From positions 1 through 64,000 of the IMG/VR virus record IMGVR_UViG_3300020577_003668: a stretch of 64,000 bases of DNA; one strand, written 5' to 3'. The notes beneath the pieces are model-generated. The model saw nothing but the letters and a program-made list of their open reading frames with translations. It was not told where the DNA came from and did no database searches. This DNA comes from a virus. Lineage: Duplodnaviria > Caudoviricetes. Numbering within the stretch: the stretch's first letter is position 1; every line of letters starts with the position of its first letter. Of the stretch, positions 49,922 through 64,000 are shown piece after piece. The position numbers and the translations under genes were made by a program.

Positions 49922-50001
49922 ACGACTGTACCTCAACGCTCTTCTAAAGCGTAGCAGAGTAAGTGGAGTCAATGTAGGTTCGAATCCTATCAGTCGTGCC
50001 A
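49922..50001 (+). tRNA. Atypical tRNA-like RNA, anticodon TCT (Arg), no D arm at the normal position
   Basis: ACGACTG/CAGTCGT acceptor, ACGCT-CTTCTAA-AGCGT, 21-nt variable region, canonical T arm, CCA. Confidence 0.7.
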
Positions 50002-58289: not shown

Positions 58290-59009
58290 ATGACAATAGG
58301 AATATACTCTCTTTATTGGGAGAAAGAAGACTTAGTTTATGTTGGGCTGTCTCAGAATATAGAAGATAGATACAGAGAACATATTCTAAAAATGAGAAAA
58401 TTAAAGCATTCTAACTATAAAGTGCAGAATGCATATAATTTATATGGAATACCCAGACTAGCTATATTAGAAGAATGTAGTATACCAGAATTAAACGATA
58501 AAGAAATCTTTTGGACAAAAGAATTTAATTCTATTAATGCTGGGTTAAATATAGTAGAGGCAGGCGAAGTAGGTTGGGGTGTTAATTCGAATGCATCCAA
58601 ATATACTAAAAGACAAATATTAAAAGTATTTGCTGTATTATACAATACTTTTAATTCTGCCGAACAAATAGCTAGTAGGTGCGGAGTCCCTACGTCTTTT
58701 GTGCACACTATCTCTAAAGGAGATAGTCATAAGTGGTTGGAAGATGAATACCCGCAACAATTTGCAAAAATGCGTAAAATTGCTGAGTCGAGGGTAAGAC
58801 AGAAATTTTCTTCTGATATTATCTATATTAAAAACAATATAGTATATCTAAAAAGTCCTACTGGTGAAATAGTAAAAATAGATACCTCTATACGTGAGTT
58901 TTGTAGAAAACATAATTTAAACTCAGGCCCTATGTCTGAAGTTATAAAGGGCCAGAGAAATCAAAATAAAGGGTGGACTTTACATGCCCATTCTAAGAAA
59001 GAGGTATAG
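58290..59009 (+). CDS. GIY-YIG homing endonuclease
   Basis: GIY...YVG, paralog of the genes at 19746 and 50062. Confidence 0.85.
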   Translation: MTIGIYSLYWEKEDLVYVGLSQNIEDRYREHILKMRKLKHSNYKVQNAYNLYGIPRLAILEECSIPELNDKEIFWTKEFNSINAGLNIVEAGEVGWGVNSNASKYTKRQILKVFAVLYNTFNSAEQIASRCGVPTSFVHTISKGDSHKWLEDEYPQQFAKMRKIAESRVRQKFSSDIIYIKNNIVYLKSPTGEIVKIDTSIREFCRKHNLNSGPMSEVIKGQRNQNKGWTLHAHSKKEV

Positions 59010-59400: not shown

Positions 59401-59473
59401 TAAGCGAAAAGGGTAGCTCCCCCGCTGTTGCCAACTCAACAGCTAGCTTATTAGTTTCTAGTTGGAGATAAAA
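59401..59473 (+). promoter_or_regulatory. Three-way-junction leader with a loop complementary to the SD (copy 3)
   Basis: TAAGC-GAAAA-GGGTAGCTCCC-hairpin(loop CCAACT)-TA-GCTTA, then AGTTGG. Confidence 0.75.
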
Positions 59474-59974
59474 ATGATTATAAAAGAATTTGTATCTAAG
59501 GATACATCTAATAGAACTCGTATGTTTTTAGAACTTCAATGCGAAGTTTGTAAGACTATATTTAGTAGGCAAAAAAGACTAGTAAATACACATACGTGTT
59601 CTGCTAAATGTAGAAATGCCTTTACAGGTATAACTGTAGAATTACAGTGTGATAACTGTGGGGTACCTTTCTTTAGAGCTAAATCTAAACTAGATAATTC
59701 TAAGTCTGGTAAGTATTTTTGCTGTAGACAGTGTAAAGATACTGCACAAACATATATGGAAGAAATAAGGCCGGAACATTATGGTAATGGTAGAGCTTCC
59801 TATAGAGAAAAAGCTTTTAGACATTATAAACCTATTTGTACAAAATGTGGTTTTTCTAATAGATTAGCCCTAGAAGTTCATCATAAAGACAAAGATCGTA
59901 ATAATAACGAAATAGATAATTTAGAAATATTATGTGCTAATTGTCATAATATTTCTCATGCTCTTTTAGCTTAG
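59474..59974 (+). CDS. HNH endonuclease with Zn-ribbon repeats
   Basis: Several CxxC, LEVHHKDKDRNNN...LCANCH. Confidence 0.85.
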   Translation: MIIKEFVSKDTSNRTRMFLELQCEVCKTIFSRQKRLVNTHTCSAKCRNAFTGITVELQCDNCGVPFFRAKSKLDNSKSGKYFCCRQCKDTAQTYMEEIRPEHYGNGRASYREKAFRHYKPICTKCGFSNRLALEVHHKDKDRNNNEIDNLEILCANCHNISHALLA

Positions 59975-60454: not shown

Positions 60455-60679
60455 AATTTCTGCTAGAAAGCTGGCACGTAACGAAGTATGAAAAGAGCTC
60501 TAGGATTTATTTTTATAATAGGCTCAGCGTTAGCTAGCTAGTTACAAAAGGGTTGCTGCACTCCGCAACTGTATTCATTATTCTAGCCTGCTCGTCATTT
60601 ATATTGGCCGAGCTAGAAGATATTAAGGATAAACTAAAATGAAAGATTTATCGCGACAGCAGTCGATCGCCGCATCTAA

Positions 60680-60754
60680 TGCCGGTAAATCGACTGTATC
60701 AGATACTTGGCTTTGACCCAAGGTAAGTAGGTTAGATTCCTACACCGGCTGCCA
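60680..60754 (+). tRNA. tRNA-Gln(TTG)
   Basis: CTTGG-CTTTGAC-CCAAG, CCA. Confidence 0.8.
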
Positions 60755-60837: not shown

Positions 60838-60902
60838 TTAATTTTTACTTGAATACGCCAAGTTATTAGCGTATAATAGATTTATCGGTTGAGAGATCAG
60901 CC

Positions 60903-61135
60903 AGCTAAAGTAAGCTCCTATTGTAGCGAGGTATTCAGTTACTTCATATAATAGAACTGTCCTGTAAAACCTTGGAGATAATAAACTCTTTAAAGTTGGG
61001 ACAAAAACAAGAACCTTGACAAACGCATGAAATAAAGCAAAGCTAATGGAATACCGCTAGCTAGATAAGTGGTCAAGCAAAAATAACACTTATCGGTCCT
61101 GAATCGAATAATCTCGATAGGAACTTACTTTAGCT
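60903..61135 (+). ncRNA. Y RNA-like 1 (long variable domain)
   Basis: TAGCG...ATTCAG-TTACTTC...CTGAAT inside a long closing stem. Confidence 0.6.
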
Positions 61136-61269
61136 GTAGCGACATAGATAGTTACTTCTTGGTTCAACTCCAAGTTTCGGGGCTTTGAGTATTATGTACT
61201 CAAAGCCCCGAAACTGAGCATGGTGCTCAACAGCCAGCAATGGCTACTATTTATAAATTTTACTCAGCT
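61132..61269 (+). ncRNA. YrlA-type Y RNA 2
   Basis: TAGCG...ATAGATAG-TTACTTC, T arm, long acceptor-like hairpin, D-like arm, CTATTTAT. Confidence 0.75.
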
Positions 61270-61277
61270 TCTTAATA

Positions 61278-61431
61278 TTGTGTGGTGTTAGAAACGGTTA
61301 CTTCATTTTGGATATGACTGTATGTGGGTTCGAGTCCCGCCGGCCCTAATAAATGTACTAAGTATATTTATTAGGGCCGTAGGCAAATTGGTAAAGCCGG
61401 TAAAAAGCTCTGTTTCGCCTTGTTCCCACAG
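61278..61431 (+). ncRNA. YrlA-type Y RNA 3 (permuted tRNA-like domain, TGG anticodon-like loop)
   Basis: GAAACGG-TTACTTC, TCAT-TTTGGAT-ATGA, GTGGG-TTCGAGT-CCCGC, acceptor hairpin, D arm, CTGTTTC...TTGTTC. Confidence 0.85.
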
Positions 61432-61442
61432 TTTTTAAATAC

Positions 61443-61550
61443 GACATAGCGTATTATTAGTTACTTCACTCACCACTTTAGAGTATGAACTGGTTCAATC
61501 CCAGACAGAGCTAGTCGGAATTGCTCATTACTAATAAGTTTGTTCTTGTC
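61443..61550 (+). ncRNA. YrlA-type Y RNA 4
   Basis: GACA-TAGCG...TTATTAG-TTACTTC, T arm, CTAATAA...TTGTTCT-TGTC. Confidence 0.75.
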
Positions 61551-61577
61551 ACCTTCTAATTAATTAAAGAAAACAAA

Positions 61578-62909
61578 ATGTCTAGCCTAAATCGTACTGT
61601 ATATCGCCAAAATATTACTGGTGCCCAAATGGCCCAGAATCATCACGGCCTGAAGGTTACTGCCCTATCTCCTGAAGCCAAGCTGACTCGCCTAACCATG
61701 GCGCACATGCTTTGGGAAAAGCAATTCTATGTTGACGGACAGAAGTCCGCCGACCTAATGGCGTCCCTTGTTACCAAGGTGTCACCATCGTTCGTGTCCA
61801 ACCTGGCTCGCCAGGCGCGCGATAAGTTCAAGCTTCGTCACGTGCCTCTGCACCTGATGCGTTCACTTGCGAAGTCAGGCGCTCTCAAGGCGGCTGATCT
61901 AGCTGAAGTGATCCAACGTCCGGACGAACTTTCCGAGTTCGTTTCCCTTTACTGGGCCGACAAGAAGCAACCTCTGTCCAACCAGGTTAAGAAGGGTCTT
62001 GCACTTGCCTTTGGTAAGTTCAACGAATACCAACTTGCTAAGTGGGATAAGAACTCCGCAGTGGTATCGCTGCGCGACGTGATGTTCCTAGCACACCCAA
62101 AGCCTGCTAACGCAGAGCAAGCTGCCCTTTTCAAGAAGGTAGCAGACCAAAAGCTAGAAACCCCTGATACTTGGGAAACCAATCTATCTGCGGGTGCGGA
62201 TAAGAAGGCTACTTTTACCACCCTAATGCAGGATGGTAAGCTAGGTGCGCTTGCGTTCCTACGTAACCTTCGTAACATGGTGGAATCTGGTGTATCCGAA
62301 TCTCTGATTCGTGATTACTCCAAGACAGTTAACACTGATCGTGTTCTACCTTTCCGTTTCCTTGCGGCAGCCCGCATTGTTCCTCAATTTGAGGACATGC
62401 TAGAAGCAATGATGTTCCGTTCCTGCGAAGGTATGGAAAAGCTGCCAGGCAAGACTAAGCTATACGTAGACGTTTCCGGCTCCATGTATACCCCTAAGGT
62501 TAGTGAAAAGTCCGACCTAACACGTCAGGATGCTTCGCTTGCCCTAGCTATTCTGTGTCGGGAACTATGCGAAGAAGTAGAAATCTACAGCTTCAGCGGA
62601 AAATCTCTACGTATTGCCCCTCGCCGAGGGTTTGCTCTAGCAGACGCTATCAAGACCAGCCAAGGCTGCTCTGGTACTCAGCTAGGACATAGTCTGAAAG
62701 AAACCGAATCTAAAGCTGATCGCATCGTTGTAATCACTGATGAACAATCTAGTGATATGCCTTCTGCTCCTTTTGGTGGAGCCAAGGGTTACCTAATCAA
62801 CGTAGGTAGCTATCAGAACGGCGTTAACCATAACGCCTGGACTAGCATTACTGGCTTCTCCGAAGCTGTATTTAGCTATATCCAAATGTTCGAACGCGAA
62901 GGCGTTTAA
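61578..62909 (+). CDS. rsr: Ro60 / TROVE-domain RNA-binding protein with C-terminal vWA domain
   Basis: IQRPDE, FNEYQLAKW, LRDVMFLAHPKP, PDTWETNLS, LRNLRN, LPFRFL, VDVSGSM MIDAS, VITDEQ. Confidence 0.93.
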   Translation: MSSLNRTVYRQNITGAQMAQNHHGLKVTALSPEAKLTRLTMAHMLWEKQFYVDGQKSADLMASLVTKVSPSFVSNLARQARDKFKLRHVPLHLMRSLAKSGALKAADLAEVIQRPDELSEFVSLYWADKKQPLSNQVKKGLALAFGKFNEYQLAKWDKNSAVVSLRDVMFLAHPKPANAEQAALFKKVADQKLETPDTWETNLSAGADKKATFTTLMQDGKLGALAFLRNLRNMVESGVSESLIRDYSKTVNTDRVLPFRFLAAARIVPQFEDMLEAMMFRSCEGMEKLPGKTKLYVDVSGSMYTPKVSEKSDLTRQDASLALAILCRELCEEVEIYSFSGKSLRIAPRRGFALADAIKTSQGCSGTQLGHSLKETESKADRIVVITDEQSSDMPSAPFGGAKGYLINVGSYQNGVNHNAWTSITGFSEAVFSYIQMFEREGV

Positions 62910-63161
62910 TACCTTTTCCCAGTAATCGACGAGGCTAGTGCCGCACTAGTACTGGGAATAAAAACCACCTCCGGATAGGTCGGGGTTCGACTAAACTAAG
63001 AAGCGATAAGAAACCACACGCTGGCCGGTGACATTGGTGGAAGCCTTAGGGAAGGGGTCGACAATTAGGGTCAAAGCCTTATAAATAAATCTCCATTAAT
63101 GACTGACCTGTAGTCAAGCAGGACGTACCCCCCAGATGGGGGTGAGAGAACCCAAAGCTTT

Positions 63162-63254
63162 AGGGCTTTGGTAAGTATTTAGCGTATGGAATAGGTACTT
63201 CACTTGTAACGAAACCCACCCTTTTCCGCTTGTTCTAATACTTTCCAAAGCCTT
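63162..63254 (+). ncRNA. Y RNA-like 5 (minimal, TGT anticodon-like loop)
   Basis: TAGCG...GGAATAGG-TACTTC...CCTTTTCC...TTGTTCT inside a long closing stem. Confidence 0.7.
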
Positions 63255-63334
63255 AGCGATATAAACAGTTACTTCAATTTTTCCTTCCACGAAAACTCGC
63301 CGAAAGGCAGTACGCTGTTTAGCCTGATCTAGGC
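63250..63334 (+). ncRNA. Y RNA-like 6 (TCC anticodon-like loop)
   Basis: GCCT-TAGCG...TAAACAG-TTACTTC, TTTTC-CTTCCAC-GAAAA, CTGTTTA...CTGATCT-AGGC. Confidence 0.7.
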
Positions 63335-63345
63335 CCCTATTAAAT

Positions 63346-63462
63346 CCTTAGCGAATTTATCAGCTACATCCGCCAGTGGGTAAGACCACACTAATCATCT
63401 AGAGGCTGTCAATGGAATAAACAGTCCAGTCGAAAGACTATCTCTGATATAATTGTTCTAGG
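63346..63462 (+). ncRNA. Y RNA-like 7
   Basis: CCT-TAGCG...TATCAG-CTACATC...CTGATA...TTGTTCT-AGG. Confidence 0.65.
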
Positions 63463-63573
63463 TGTATATTTATTATGAAAAGAACTATTCTTGATTACTG
63501 CATCTACTTATTCATTCTAGCAGTAGCAATTTTTAGTGTAATTTATCCCTTATGGCCGAAGTAAGTAATTAAT

Positions 63574-63914: not shown

Positions 63915-63979
63915 GATTGTCGTAATTCGGATCAAGCAGATGTGGGCCAGACGGGGCTTCGCCGCCCCCACCTCCACCA
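63902..63979 (+). ncRNA. tmRNA-like 3' end (possible acceptor piece or remnant)
   Basis: GAC-GGGGC-TTCGCC-GCCCC-CACCTCC-A-CCA. Confidence 0.4.
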
Positions 63980-64000
63980 GTTAGTATAGAGTATAGATGC

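What the first reader, a model, noticed from the sequence alone, without database searches (positions are those of the whole stretch)
60849..63462. Phage Ro60 flanked by seven diversified Y RNAs
Seen: four RNAs upstream and three downstream of the TROVE gene share TAGCG...stem-TTACTTC...stem...TTGTTCT. The inner stem co-varies fully (ATTCAG/CTGAAT, ATAGATAG/CTATTTAT, GAAACGG/CTGTTTC, TTATTAG/CTAATAA, GGAATAGG/CCTTTTCC, TAAACAG/CTGTTTA, TATCAG/CTGATA). The payloads differ: a full permuted tRNA (copy 3), T/acceptor/D arms only (copy 2), bare anticodon-like hairpins (TGT, TCC), and a payload of about 150 nt (copy 1). Neighbouring copies overlap at their closing stems. Established: YrlA RNAs mimic tRNA, lie beside rsr and occur in some phages. 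Inference: one Ro60 ring with interchangeable RNA adaptors, for example decoys for host anticodon nucleases or tethers to different RNases, next to a large tRNA set.
Basis: partly seen in the sequence, partly recalled or inferred. Interest (0 to 1): 0.8.

Follow-up and report, generated by a model that had tools for sequence, protein, structure and literature searches.

The report
Phage Ro60 gene with seven Y RNAs
A 105-kb T5-like phage encodes the ring-shaped RNA-binding protein Ro60 and, packed around the gene, seven small RNAs that share one protein-binding "handle" but carry different heads (three imitate tRNA). It is a real and large example of a known protein-RNA partnership, and such arrays turn out to be routine in phages that carry this gene.

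Summary
Seven units lie on the + strand, four upstream and three downstream of a TROVE/Ro60 gene (61578-62909). Each has a closing stem, a doubly bulged conserved helix, an inner stem and UUACUUC, then a variable payload.

A covariance model built here ranks exactly these seven as the top hits in the 64-kb window. It finds nothing else in the 105.5-kb genome.

The same handle occurs 118 times beside Ro60 genes in 31 phage loci, always on the Ro60 strand. Counts run from 2 to 8 per locus, median 4. Caulobacter phage CcrColossus has eight and Xanthomonas phage MET23-P3 five. Covariation is strong: 91% of cells pair, and 16 of 17 pairs show compensatory changes.

So these are Y RNAs of the YrlA/YrlB kind. 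The handle variant falls below the Rfam YrlA threshold.

Copy 3 is a complete circularly permuted tRNA mimic. Copies 2 and 4 carry T and D arms. Anticodon-like loops recur across the family.

The decoy idea remains untested. This scan has already reported arrays with the same handle on other phage DNA.

Verdict: new variant of a known kind, moderate interest.

The parts
60849..60877 (+). Sigma-70-like promoter candidate (TTGAAT-17-TATAAT) just upstream of unit c1
   Evidence: scores it 10 of 12. The region as a whole has no more such sites than shuffled sequence, so this is only a candidate.
60902..61136 (+). Y RNA unit c1. Closing stem of 21 bp plus 1 mismatch (60902-60923 with 61115-61136). 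Handle TAGCG...AATCT, inner stem ATTCAG/CTGAAT, 158-nt payload without tRNA-like arms.
   Evidence: R1 scores 15.1 bits, E 0.07. Stem measured, payload folded. This unit is the weakest match to the family.
61131..61270 (+). Y RNA unit c2. The payload runs T arm, 19-bp closed stem, D-like arm, extra hairpin. The handle sits where the variable loop would be. Its 5' closing strand lies inside c1's 3' strand.
   Evidence: R1 scores 26.3 bits, E 4e-5, and the unit was not in the training set. Fold. ARAGORN does not call the re-linearised form a tRNA.
61277..61432 (+). Y RNA unit c3 (YrlA-like). Handle variant TGGTG...TTCC. The payload runs a hairpin with a 7-nt loop UUUGGAU, T arm, 14-bp closed acceptor-like stem, UA, D arm.
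   Evidence: R1 scores 56.4 bits, E 7e-14, and the unit was not in the training set. Rfam YrlA scores 21.8 bits over model positions 24-84, the best YrlA hit in the genome. ARAGORN calls the re-linearised domain tRNA-Pro(UGG).
61441..61552 (+). Y RNA unit c4. The payload runs a hairpin, T arm and D arm, with no acceptor-like stem. It ends 25 nt before the Ro60 start codon.
   Evidence: R1 scores 41.9 bits. The positional and sequence ortholog L004:1977-2090 aligns along the whole length.
61578..62909 (+). Ro60 / TROVE-vWA protein gene (443 aa)
   Evidence: Pfam TROVE E 9e-15, above cut-off. PHROG 850 RNA-binding protein E 5e-39. The best solved structure is Thermus phage phiLo Ro60 (9KOP/9L5Y), E 5e-24 over residues 20-399, with the MIDAS motif DVSGSM kept.
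63160..63256 (+). Y RNA unit c5, the minimal type. Closing stem of 19 bp plus 1 mismatch, 24-nt loop UACUUC...GAAAC.
   Evidence: R1 scores 61.7 bits. Stem measured. Positional orthologs with 18-20 bp stems lie about 70-150 nt downstream of Ro60 in L003, L005, L006, L007, L008 and L013.
63248..63336 (+). Y RNA unit c6. The payload has a weak hairpin UUUUC-CUUCCAC-GAAAA and a GCC-GAAA-GGC tetraloop hairpin. Its 5' closing strand lies inside c5's 3' strand.
   Evidence: R1 scores 51.9 bits. Fold and pair probabilities. Positional orthologs carry 7-nt CU-NNN-AA loops.
63343..63465 (+). Y RNA unit c7. Handle TAGCG...TTGTTCT, variant junction CUACAUC, 80-nt payload with three small hairpins.
   Evidence: R1 scores 17.2 bits, E 0.017, and the unit was not in the training set. 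Fold.
60519..60590 (+). Possible degenerate eighth unit. It has a handle-like bulged helix only, with no inner stem or UUACUUC. Two tRNA genes separate it from c1.
   Evidence: R1 scores 12.5 bits, E 0.39. This is not significant, and no relative was found.

Best explanation
The seven units are phage-encoded Y RNAs, the small non-coding RNA partners of the Ro60 ring protein encoded between them.

**Shown here**
- Each unit pairs its 5' and 3' ends into a closing stem.
- Next comes a conserved helix: a bulged U, then two pairs (A-U/G-C or G-C/G-C, co-varying), then a bulged C or U, then an invariant G.U pair.
- Above that sit a short internal loop, an 8-bp covarying inner stem and the invariant junction UUACUUC. 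A payload follows that differs from unit to unit.
- The handle is confined to Ro60 loci and to the Ro60 strand in 31 phages.

**Inferred**
- Ro60 binds the bulged helix on its outer surface, as in Xenopus and Deinococcus Y RNAs and as shown in vitro for the homologous phiLo Ro60 with Yrl1 and Yrl2.
- The payload then decides what the particle touches. The tRNA-like payloads (c2, c3, c4) would present a tRNA elbow. The short ones (c5, c6) would present a single loop. Either could gate the Ro60 cavity or tether Ro60 to host enzymes such as PNPase or tRNA-binding proteins.
- The phage has no RtcB or Rnl2-type ligase, so any partner would be a host protein.
- The units are probably transcribed with Ro60 and the surrounding tRNA genes as one precursor, then cut out.
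- The first unit of each cluster (c1 and c5) has a closing stem of about 20 bp. These stems look like RNase III entry sites, and cutting them would also free the 5' strand of the next unit.
For: - **Protein:** TROVE domain and homology to phiLo Ro60.
- **Within the genome:** the seven copies are the top seven hits of model R1 in the window. The whole-genome search finds matches only inside these units: five full-length, plus two weak partial matches inside c3 and c1.
- **Across phages:** 118 units in 31 Ro60 loci, all on the Ro60 strand, 2-8 per locus.
- **Whole-genome scans of cultured phages:** hits only next to TROVE in CcrColossus (8 units in 280 kb) and in MET23-P3 (5 units in 43 kb).
- **Covariation:** 91.0% of cells pair, against at most 52% when partners are slid. 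16 of 17 pairs show compensatory change. The A-U/G-C switch at columns 8/329 runs 70 G-C, 40 A-U and 4 U-A, with one non-pair. The G.U pair is invariant in 115 of 115.
- **5' strand motif:** the consensus UGG(C/U)GAA fits the published YrlA motif GNCGAAN0-1G (PMC4201824). The invariant UA after the stem fits the conserved 23UA24 of YrlA (10.1101/312249).
- **tRNA likeness:** c3 matches the Rfam YrlA core and folds as a permuted tRNA.
- **Precedent:** phiLo Ro60 binds two phage Y-like RNAs and host PNPase in vitro (PMC12135203).
Against: - There is no expression, processing or binding data for this phage or any relative.
- No unit reaches the Rfam YrlA gathering score (21.8 against 69 bits).
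- c1 and c7 are weak matches to the family model (E 0.07 and 0.017).
- c1, c2 and c6 deviate at the nearly invariant U two positions before the C[U/C] dinucleotide, so some copies may bind Ro60 poorly or be decaying.
- The training units for the model were picked with a descriptor that required pairing, and alignment A2 is fitted to the model. The pairing percentages are therefore somewhat inflated.
- RNase III processing and the identity of any effector are pure inference.
Confidence: 0.8

Rival explanations
1. The RNAs are decoys or sponges. Each displays a tRNA part (anticodon loop, elbow or whole tRNA) on the Ro60 handle, to absorb host tRNA-targeting defence nucleases or other tRNA-binding factors and so protect the phage's tRNA set. 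This is a rival about function only; it accepts that the units are Y RNAs.
For: - The first payload hairpin has a 7-nt loop in 36 of 117 units.
- 17 of these have the strict anticodon frame Y-U-NNN-R-A, against 0-3 in 20 sets of random start points.
- Orthologous units with the same stem differ in the middle triplet. Examples are L005 GUU against L006 GCU, and L003, L009, L002 and L013 with stem TAGA/TCTA.
- The commonest triplets are GUU and UUU. From my own memory, not tested here, these match tRNAs cut by colicin E5-type and PrrC/PARIS-type nucleases.
- The array sits inside a tRNA cluster of at least 15 genes.
Against: - The units are related, so these counts are not independent events.
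- Only about 15% of units have the strict frame, and none of this window's seven does. c3 has loop UUUGGAU, c6 CUUCCAC, and c5 has no stable stem.
- c3 has A at position 37, where the phage's tRNA-Pro has G.
- In the published YrlA model this hairpin is the variable arm and YrlA lacks an anticodon loop (10.1101/312249).
- Anticodon-like loops could simply be relics of an origin from tRNA dimers.
Confidence: 0.1
2. The handles are cis-acting elements of the Ro60 mRNA, that is, autoregulatory Ro60-binding sites or stabilising structures in the 5' and 3' untranslated regions, not free small RNAs.
For: - c4 ends 25 nt before the start codon, and c5 follows the gene.
- All units lie on the mRNA strand.
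- No terminator-like site separates the units from the gene.
Against: - Relatives carry units kilobases from Ro60, separated by tRNA genes or ORFs. Examples are L005:5894, L006:6304 and RsoM2USA, at 4.8 and 30 kb.
- Eight tandem units with elaborate tRNA-like payloads are hard to explain as leader structure.
- Known bacterial Y RNAs are processed from rsr operon transcripts.
Confidence: 0.06
3. The units are decayed or rearranged tRNA genes and processing punctuation of the tRNA operon, with no functional link to Ro60.
For: - Three units carry T and D arms.
- The array is embedded in a tRNA cluster with homing endonucleases, which promote rearrangement.
Against: - Four units have no tRNA-like arm.
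- The conserved part is the handle, not the tRNA-like part.
- The handle is found only in genomes with Ro60, and mostly next to the gene.
- Purifying selection on pairing is evident.
Confidence: 0.03

Closest known systems
YrlA / YrlB Y RNAs with Rsr (Ro60) of Salmonella Typhimurium, Mycobacterium smegmatis and 22 phages (Chen et al. 2014, PMC4201824; Rfam RF02553; structure in bioRxiv 10.1101/312249)
   Same: - Encoded next to Ro60 on the same strand.
- Terminal stem with a conserved 5'-strand motif (GNCGAA-like) and a conserved UA after the stem.
- A modular second domain. In c3 (and in c2 by manual inspection) the order is T arm, closed acceptor-like stem, UA, D arm.
- More than one Y RNA per locus, some without a full tRNA-like domain (as with YrlB).
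   Different: - No unit reaches the Rfam gathering score.
- The handle consensus differs: a U bulge, R-G pairs, a Y bulge, a G.U pair, and the invariant UUACUUC.
- There are 7 units here and 2-8 in relatives, against roughly 1.3 reported per genome (355 RNAs in 276 genomes).
- The array is split on both sides of the gene.
- Payloads attach to the handle at different points of the tRNA fold (c2 against c3).
- The hairpin in the 'variable arm' position often has an anticodon-type loop.
Thermus phage phiLo Ro60 with Yrl1 and Yrl2 (NAR 2025, PMC12135203; PDB 9KOP, 9L5Y)
   Same: The closest solved homolog of the protein (E 5e-24). It is a phage Ro60 with its own Y-like RNAs upstream of the gene, a stem-bulge-stem design and a CGAA-type motif. 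In vitro it forms a complex with host PNPase.
   Different: It has two RNAs rather than seven, and no tRNA-like payloads are described in what I read. I could not fetch the phiLo sequence, so model R1 was not tested on Yrl1 or Yrl2.
Deinococcus radiodurans Yrn1-Rsr-PNPase (RYPER) and metazoan Y RNAs / nematode stem-bulge RNAs
   Same: The functional logic is shared. A bulged conserved helix near the paired ends binds Ro60, and a variable loop or domain recruits effectors or gates the ring. These are multi-member families within one genome.
   Different: There is no detectable sequence homology: Rfam Y_RNA gives no hit at E <= 10. These relatives are chromosomal rather than in a phage tRNA operon. 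The parallel with the bulged C and G.U of the metazoan site comes from my memory of that site and was not tested here.

Membership tests
Y RNA (Ro60-partner non-coding RNA, functional class) | Encoded beside a Ro60/TROVE gene, on the same strand | tested here: met
   All seven units lie within 680 nt of the gene on the + strand. 118 of 118 family members in 31 loci are on the Ro60 strand.
Y RNA (Ro60-partner non-coding RNA, functional class) | 5' and 3' ends pair into a long stem that contains a conserved bulged helix | tested here: met
   Closing stem plus U bulge, two pairs, C/U bulge and an invariant G.U pair. 92% of helix-1 cells pair, and 8 of 9 pairs show compensatory change.
Y RNA (Ro60-partner non-coding RNA, functional class) | Conserved 5'-strand motif GNCGAAN0-1G / CGAA (PMC4201824, PMC12135203) | tested here: inconclusive
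   The family consensus UGG(C/U)GAA fits at 5-6 of 6 positions. The window copies read AGCGA(N), AGCGU or GGUGU, fitting at 3-5 of 6 positions.
Y RNA (Ro60-partner non-coding RNA, functional class) | Physical binding to Ro60 | not testable with these tools
   This needs EMSA or RIP-seq. The only precedent is the homologous phiLo protein (PMC12135203).
YrlA (Rfam RF02553) | Score at or above the gathering threshold of 69 bits | tested here: not met
   The best score is c3 at 21.8 bits over model positions 24-84. No other unit matches at E <= 10.
YrlA (Rfam RF02553) | tRNA-like domain in the order T arm, closed acceptor-like stem, UA, D arm | tested here: met
   Met for c3, with the Rfam alignment and the ARAGORN cloverleaf after re-linearisation. 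Met for c2 by manual inspection only: the UA linker is absent, and ARAGORN does not call the re-linearised form a tRNA. c4 lacks the acceptor-like stem. c1, c5, c6 and c7 have no such domain, so they are YrlB-like or other.
YrlA (Rfam RF02553) | Conserved UA dinucleotide directly after the 5' strand of the stem (23UA24; 10.1101/312249) | tested here: met
   In the UUACUUC junction, U is invariant in 116 of 116 units and A is present in 107 of 116.
Canonical tRNA (Rfam RF00005) | Contiguous cloverleaf detected by a tRNA model | tested here: not met
   Neither ARAGORN nor Rfam tRNA hits any unit. c3 is called only after artificial circular permutation.
Ro60 / TROVE protein | TROVE HEAT-repeat ring plus vWA domain with a MIDAS motif | tested here: met
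   Pfam TROVE scores 55 bits against a cut-off of 23. vWA_Ro60 scores 19.9 bits, below its cut-off of 27.7. The alignment to phiLo Ro60 spans both domains and keeps DVSGSM and TDEQ.

The most novel reading that the evidence does not exclude
The array is a library of tRNA-part mimics mounted on a common Ro60 handle: an anticodon-loop mimic, an elbow mimic and a whole permuted tRNA, attached at different points. In this reading the library serves the phage in conflict with the host. It would intercept tRNA-targeting defence nucleases, or steer host tRNA and RNA enzymes. The anticodon-like triplet would change between closely related phages as an arms-race character.
Probability: 0.1. Interest if true: 0.8.

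Novelty: new variant of a known kind. Interest (0 to 1): 0.42.

Why it matters
Ro60 and Y RNAs are conserved from bacteria to humans, yet what the bacterial and phage particles do is still largely open.

This locus, and the 31 related loci found here, show that phage Ro60 genes usually come with a set of 2-8 Y RNAs. The sets share one strongly covarying handle that current Rfam models miss.

Such arrays exist unannotated in culturable phage-host pairs: CcrColossus on Caulobacter, Xanthomonas phages, and crAss-like phages on Bacteroides.

This gives a ready covariance model for annotation. It also gives tractable systems in which to ask what the different payloads recruit.

It corrects annotation too. 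Gaps of 0.6-1.2 kb upstream of TROVE in these cultured genomes hold RNA genes, and at least one annotated tRNA lies inside a Y RNA unit.

The system itself is not new.

Tried and rejected
1. A structure-only descriptor (bulged helix plus two stems, without UUACUUC) gave 24 hits in the window against 7-20 in shuffles. It also missed c1, c5 and c7, so it was dropped in favour of a covariance model.
2. Rfam at E <= 10 returned only a sub-threshold YrlA hit on c3 and spurious microRNA hits on the long hairpins.
3. No control genome gave a true YrlA, so I could not display the ends of the YrlA consensus for a direct comparison of handles.
4. The supplement tables of Chen 2014, with its phage list and copy numbers, are not held. 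Nor are two Wolin-lab reviews. I therefore cannot say how many units per phage that study listed.
5. phiLo did not appear among the rows listed from the phage collection, so R1 was not tried on Yrl1 or Yrl2.
6. ARAGORN does not call the re-linearised c2 a tRNA.
7. The 250-nt gap between Ro60 and c5 is not a handle unit: R1 gives no hit there. It holds a separate element shared with L004.
8. RtcB and Rnl2-type RNA ligases are absent from the phage, so it has no self-contained RNA-repair operon of the bacterial rsr-rtcBA kind.
9. A DNA-level repeat or mobile element is rejected. The hits are strand-specific, and G.U pairs and compensatory changes are preserved.
Full report
**What is there**

The window is the first 64 kb of a complete 105,545-bp virus record with direct terminal repeats. 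Its large terminase is nearest to those of T5-like phages at 45-50% identity.

From about 41.6 kb onward the + strand carries a tRNA cluster. ARAGORN finds 13 tRNA genes and Rfam adds two more. HNH and GIY-YIG homing endonuclease genes are interspersed among them.

Inside this cluster, ORF 61578-62909 encodes a 443-aa TROVE protein.
- Pfam TROVE gives E 9e-15.
- PHROG 850 gives E 5e-39.
- The nearest solved structure is Ro60 of Thermus phage phiLo, at E 5e-24 over residues 20-399. The MIDAS motif DVSGSM is kept.

**Checking the observation**

The pattern TAGCG-N6-14-TAC[AT]TC occurs six times between 60924 and 63370 on the + strand. It occurs nowhere else on either strand of the window. Copy 3 carries TGGTG instead.

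Reading the copies and folding them gives one architecture:
- a closing stem of 3-21 bp;
- an unpaired U;
- two pairs, AG with CU, or GG with CC in c3;
- an unpaired C, or U in c3;
- a G.U pair;
- 2-4 unpaired nucleotides opposite 4-6;
- an inner stem of 6-9 bp;
- the junction UUACUUC, or CUACAUC in c7;
- the payload.

I built covariance model R1 from 19 compact units, of which only c4, c5 and c6 came from this window. With filters off, over all 64 kb and both strands, the seven best hits are exactly the seven copies.
- Not in the training set: c3 (56.4 bits), c2 (26.3), c7 (17.2, E 0.017) and c1 (15.1, E 0.07).
- An eighth candidate, at 60519-60590, has only the bulged helix (E 0.39).
- Everything else has E > 1.

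The whole-genome search finds matches only inside these units: five full-length matches, plus two weak partial matches inside c3 and c1.

**Relatives**

A scan of IMG/VR with the protein returned 26 loci with Ro60 at 39-65% identity. R1 found 94 units in them, all on the Ro60 strand.

GenBank phages also encode related Ro60 proteins. R1 results for them are below.

| Phage | R1 units | Position |
|---|---|---|
| Caulobacter phage CcrColossus | 8 in tandem | In the 1.2-kb gap upstream of TROVE gp139; nowhere else in 280 kb |
| Xanthomonas phage MET23-P3 | 5 | All directly upstream of its TROVE gene |
| Brevundimonas phage Bambus | up to 6 | Upstream of the gene |
| Microcystis phage Mvi-JY20 | 2 | Downstream of the gene |
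| crAss-like phage cr106_1 | 2-3 | Downstream of the gene |
| Ralstonia phage RsoM2USA | 4 | Ro60 strand, but 4.8 and 30 kb from the gene |

None of these units is annotated.

Over the 31 loci counted here there are 118 units, 2-8 per locus, with a median of 4. 26 loci have at least one unit with a T-loop motif.

**Covariation**

On the 19-sequence alignment, 91.6% of cells pair and 14 of 17 pairs show compensatory change. On 116 units aligned to the model:
- 91.0% of cells pair, against 41-52% when partners are slid by 1-3 columns;
- 16 of 17 pairs show compensatory change;
- the pair next to the U bulge is G-C in 70 units, A-U in 40 and U-A in 4, with one non-pair;
- the G.U pair is invariant in 115 of 115;
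- U, C, U and C of UACUUC are invariant or nearly so.

Two caveats apply. The training units were chosen with a descriptor that demanded pairing, and A2 is fitted to the model. However, the A-U/G-C switch was not imposed by my descriptor.

**What kind of RNA this is**

The features match published Y RNAs.
- The units lie next to Ro60 on the same strand.
- The RNA ends pair into a stem with a conserved bulged helix.
- The family's 5'-strand consensus, UGG(C/U)GAA, fits the YrlA motif GNCGAAN0-1G (PMC4201824).
- A conserved UA follows the stem, like 23UA24 of YrlA (10.1101/312249).
- The RNA is modular, with a second domain.

Details of the payloads:
- **c3.** The Rfam YrlA model aligns to it over positions 24-84: T arm, closed acceptor-like stem, UA, D arm. 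The score is 21.8 bits, far below the 69-bit threshold, yet it is the best YrlA hit in the genome. I cut the closed acceptor loop in silico and joined the D arm to the hairpin that follows UUACUUC. ARAGORN then called a tRNA-Pro(UGG) cloverleaf. c3 is therefore a complete, circularly permuted tRNA mimic.
- **c2.** It has a T arm, a 19-bp closed stem, a D-like arm and a further hairpin. The handle enters at the variable-loop position.
- **c4.** It has a hairpin, a T arm and a D arm, with no acceptor-like stem. It has a clear ortholog in L004.
- **c5.** This is the minimal type, with a 24-nt loop.
- **c6.** It has two small hairpins.
- **c7 and c1.** Their payloads are 80 and 158 nt, with no tRNA-like arm.

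**Anticodon-like loops**

The UUC of UUACUUC forms the base of the first payload hairpin.

In c3-like units of relatives this hairpin has a 7-nt loop of the form CU-NNN-AA. The triplets differ (GUU, GCU, UCU, UGU), sometimes between otherwise near-identical orthologs.

Across the family, 36 of 117 units have a 7-nt first loop. 17 have the strict anticodon frame, against 0-3 in random start points.

In this window the evidence is weak.
- c5 forms no stable stem.
- c6's hairpin scores -0.4 kcal/mol.
- c3's loop has A37, where the phage's own tRNA-Pro has G37.

In the published YrlA model this hairpin is the variable arm, and the stem leading to Ro60 is the anticodon stem. The loops could also be relics of an origin from tRNA dimers (10.1101/312249).

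**How it probably works**

Shown: the anatomy, the covariation and the genomic linkage.

Inferred:
- Ro60 binds the bulged helix.
- The payloads act as gates or tethers to host factors. The precedents are Deinococcus Yrn1 with PNPase, and phiLo Ro60 with Yrl RNAs and host PNPase in vitro (PMC12135203).
- Any partner would be a host protein, because the phage has no RtcB or Rnl2-type ligase.

On processing:
- The units are packed with spacers of 6-10 nt.
- A promoter-like site lies at 60849-60877.
- The first unit of each cluster has a closing stem of about 20 bp: c1 has 21 bp and c5 has 19 bp.
- The next unit's 5' strand lies inside that stem. The same arrangement appears downstream of Ro60 in L003 and L008.
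- I infer RNase III cleavage of these stems, which would release both neighbouring units.

**Literature and earlier notes**

Full-text searches found Chen et al. 2014, which reported YrlA-like RNAs beside Ro60 in 254 bacteria and 22 phages, 355 RNAs in all. They also found the YrlA structure preprint, the phiLo paper and a jumbo-phage survey that mentions TROVE. None describes arrays of 4-8 units or the UUACUUC handle. Supplement tables and two reviews were not available.

This scan's own earlier notes already report arrays with the same handle in at least six other phage genomes. They mostly judged them members of the known system. My tests agree.

**Verdict**

The RNAs are Y RNAs of a handle variant that Rfam does not capture. 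The count of seven is at the upper end of a common pattern, and the decoy idea remains untested.

Noticed in passing
window 63918-64000, continuing to genome position 64183 (L031:2076-2341): The phage encodes a two-piece (circularly permuted) tmRNA, scoring 96.7 bits on Rfam tmRNA_permuted against a cut-off of 47. It lies just downstream of the Y RNA array and tRNA-Ser.
   Followed up: partly
window 62983-63078: A 97-nt element between the Ro60 stop codon and unit c5 is 85.6% identical to L004:4253-4347, which sits at the same position in that relative. Its flanks are conserved and a central hairpin changes sequence while keeping its pairing. It is not a handle unit and matches no Rfam family.
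   Followed up: partly
window 60519-60590: A handle-like bulged helix (GGCU-C-AG-C-G ... UUCU-AGCC) encloses a small hairpin. It has no inner stem or UUACUUC. It could be a degenerate eighth unit, or chance (R1 E 0.39).
   Followed up: partly
window 60680-60751 and 49922-49998: Rfam calls two tRNA genes here (39.8 and 38.3 bits) that ARAGORN does not report.
   Followed up: no
window 63476-63565: A short ORF of 29 codons encodes a hydrophobic peptide. It starts 10 nt after unit c7 and ends just before tRNA-Ser.
   Followed up: no
L035:2173-2240 (Caulobacter phage CcrColossus, JX100810.1 109217-109284): The record's annotated tRNA-Gln lies inside one of the eight Y-RNA-like units (L035:2169-2333). 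It may be the tRNA-like payload of that unit and not a free tRNA gene.
   Followed up: no
Ralstonia phage RsoM2USA, MG752970.1 49860-50070 and 75201-75506 (- strand): This phage has the closest named Ro60 (54% identity). Its four handle units are not adjacent to the gene but lie 4.8 kb and 30 kb away, in two pairs.
   Followed up: no
window 58290-59009 and 59462-59974: GIY-YIG and HNH homing-endonuclease genes sit between tRNA genes, immediately upstream of the Ro60 locus.
   Followed up: no
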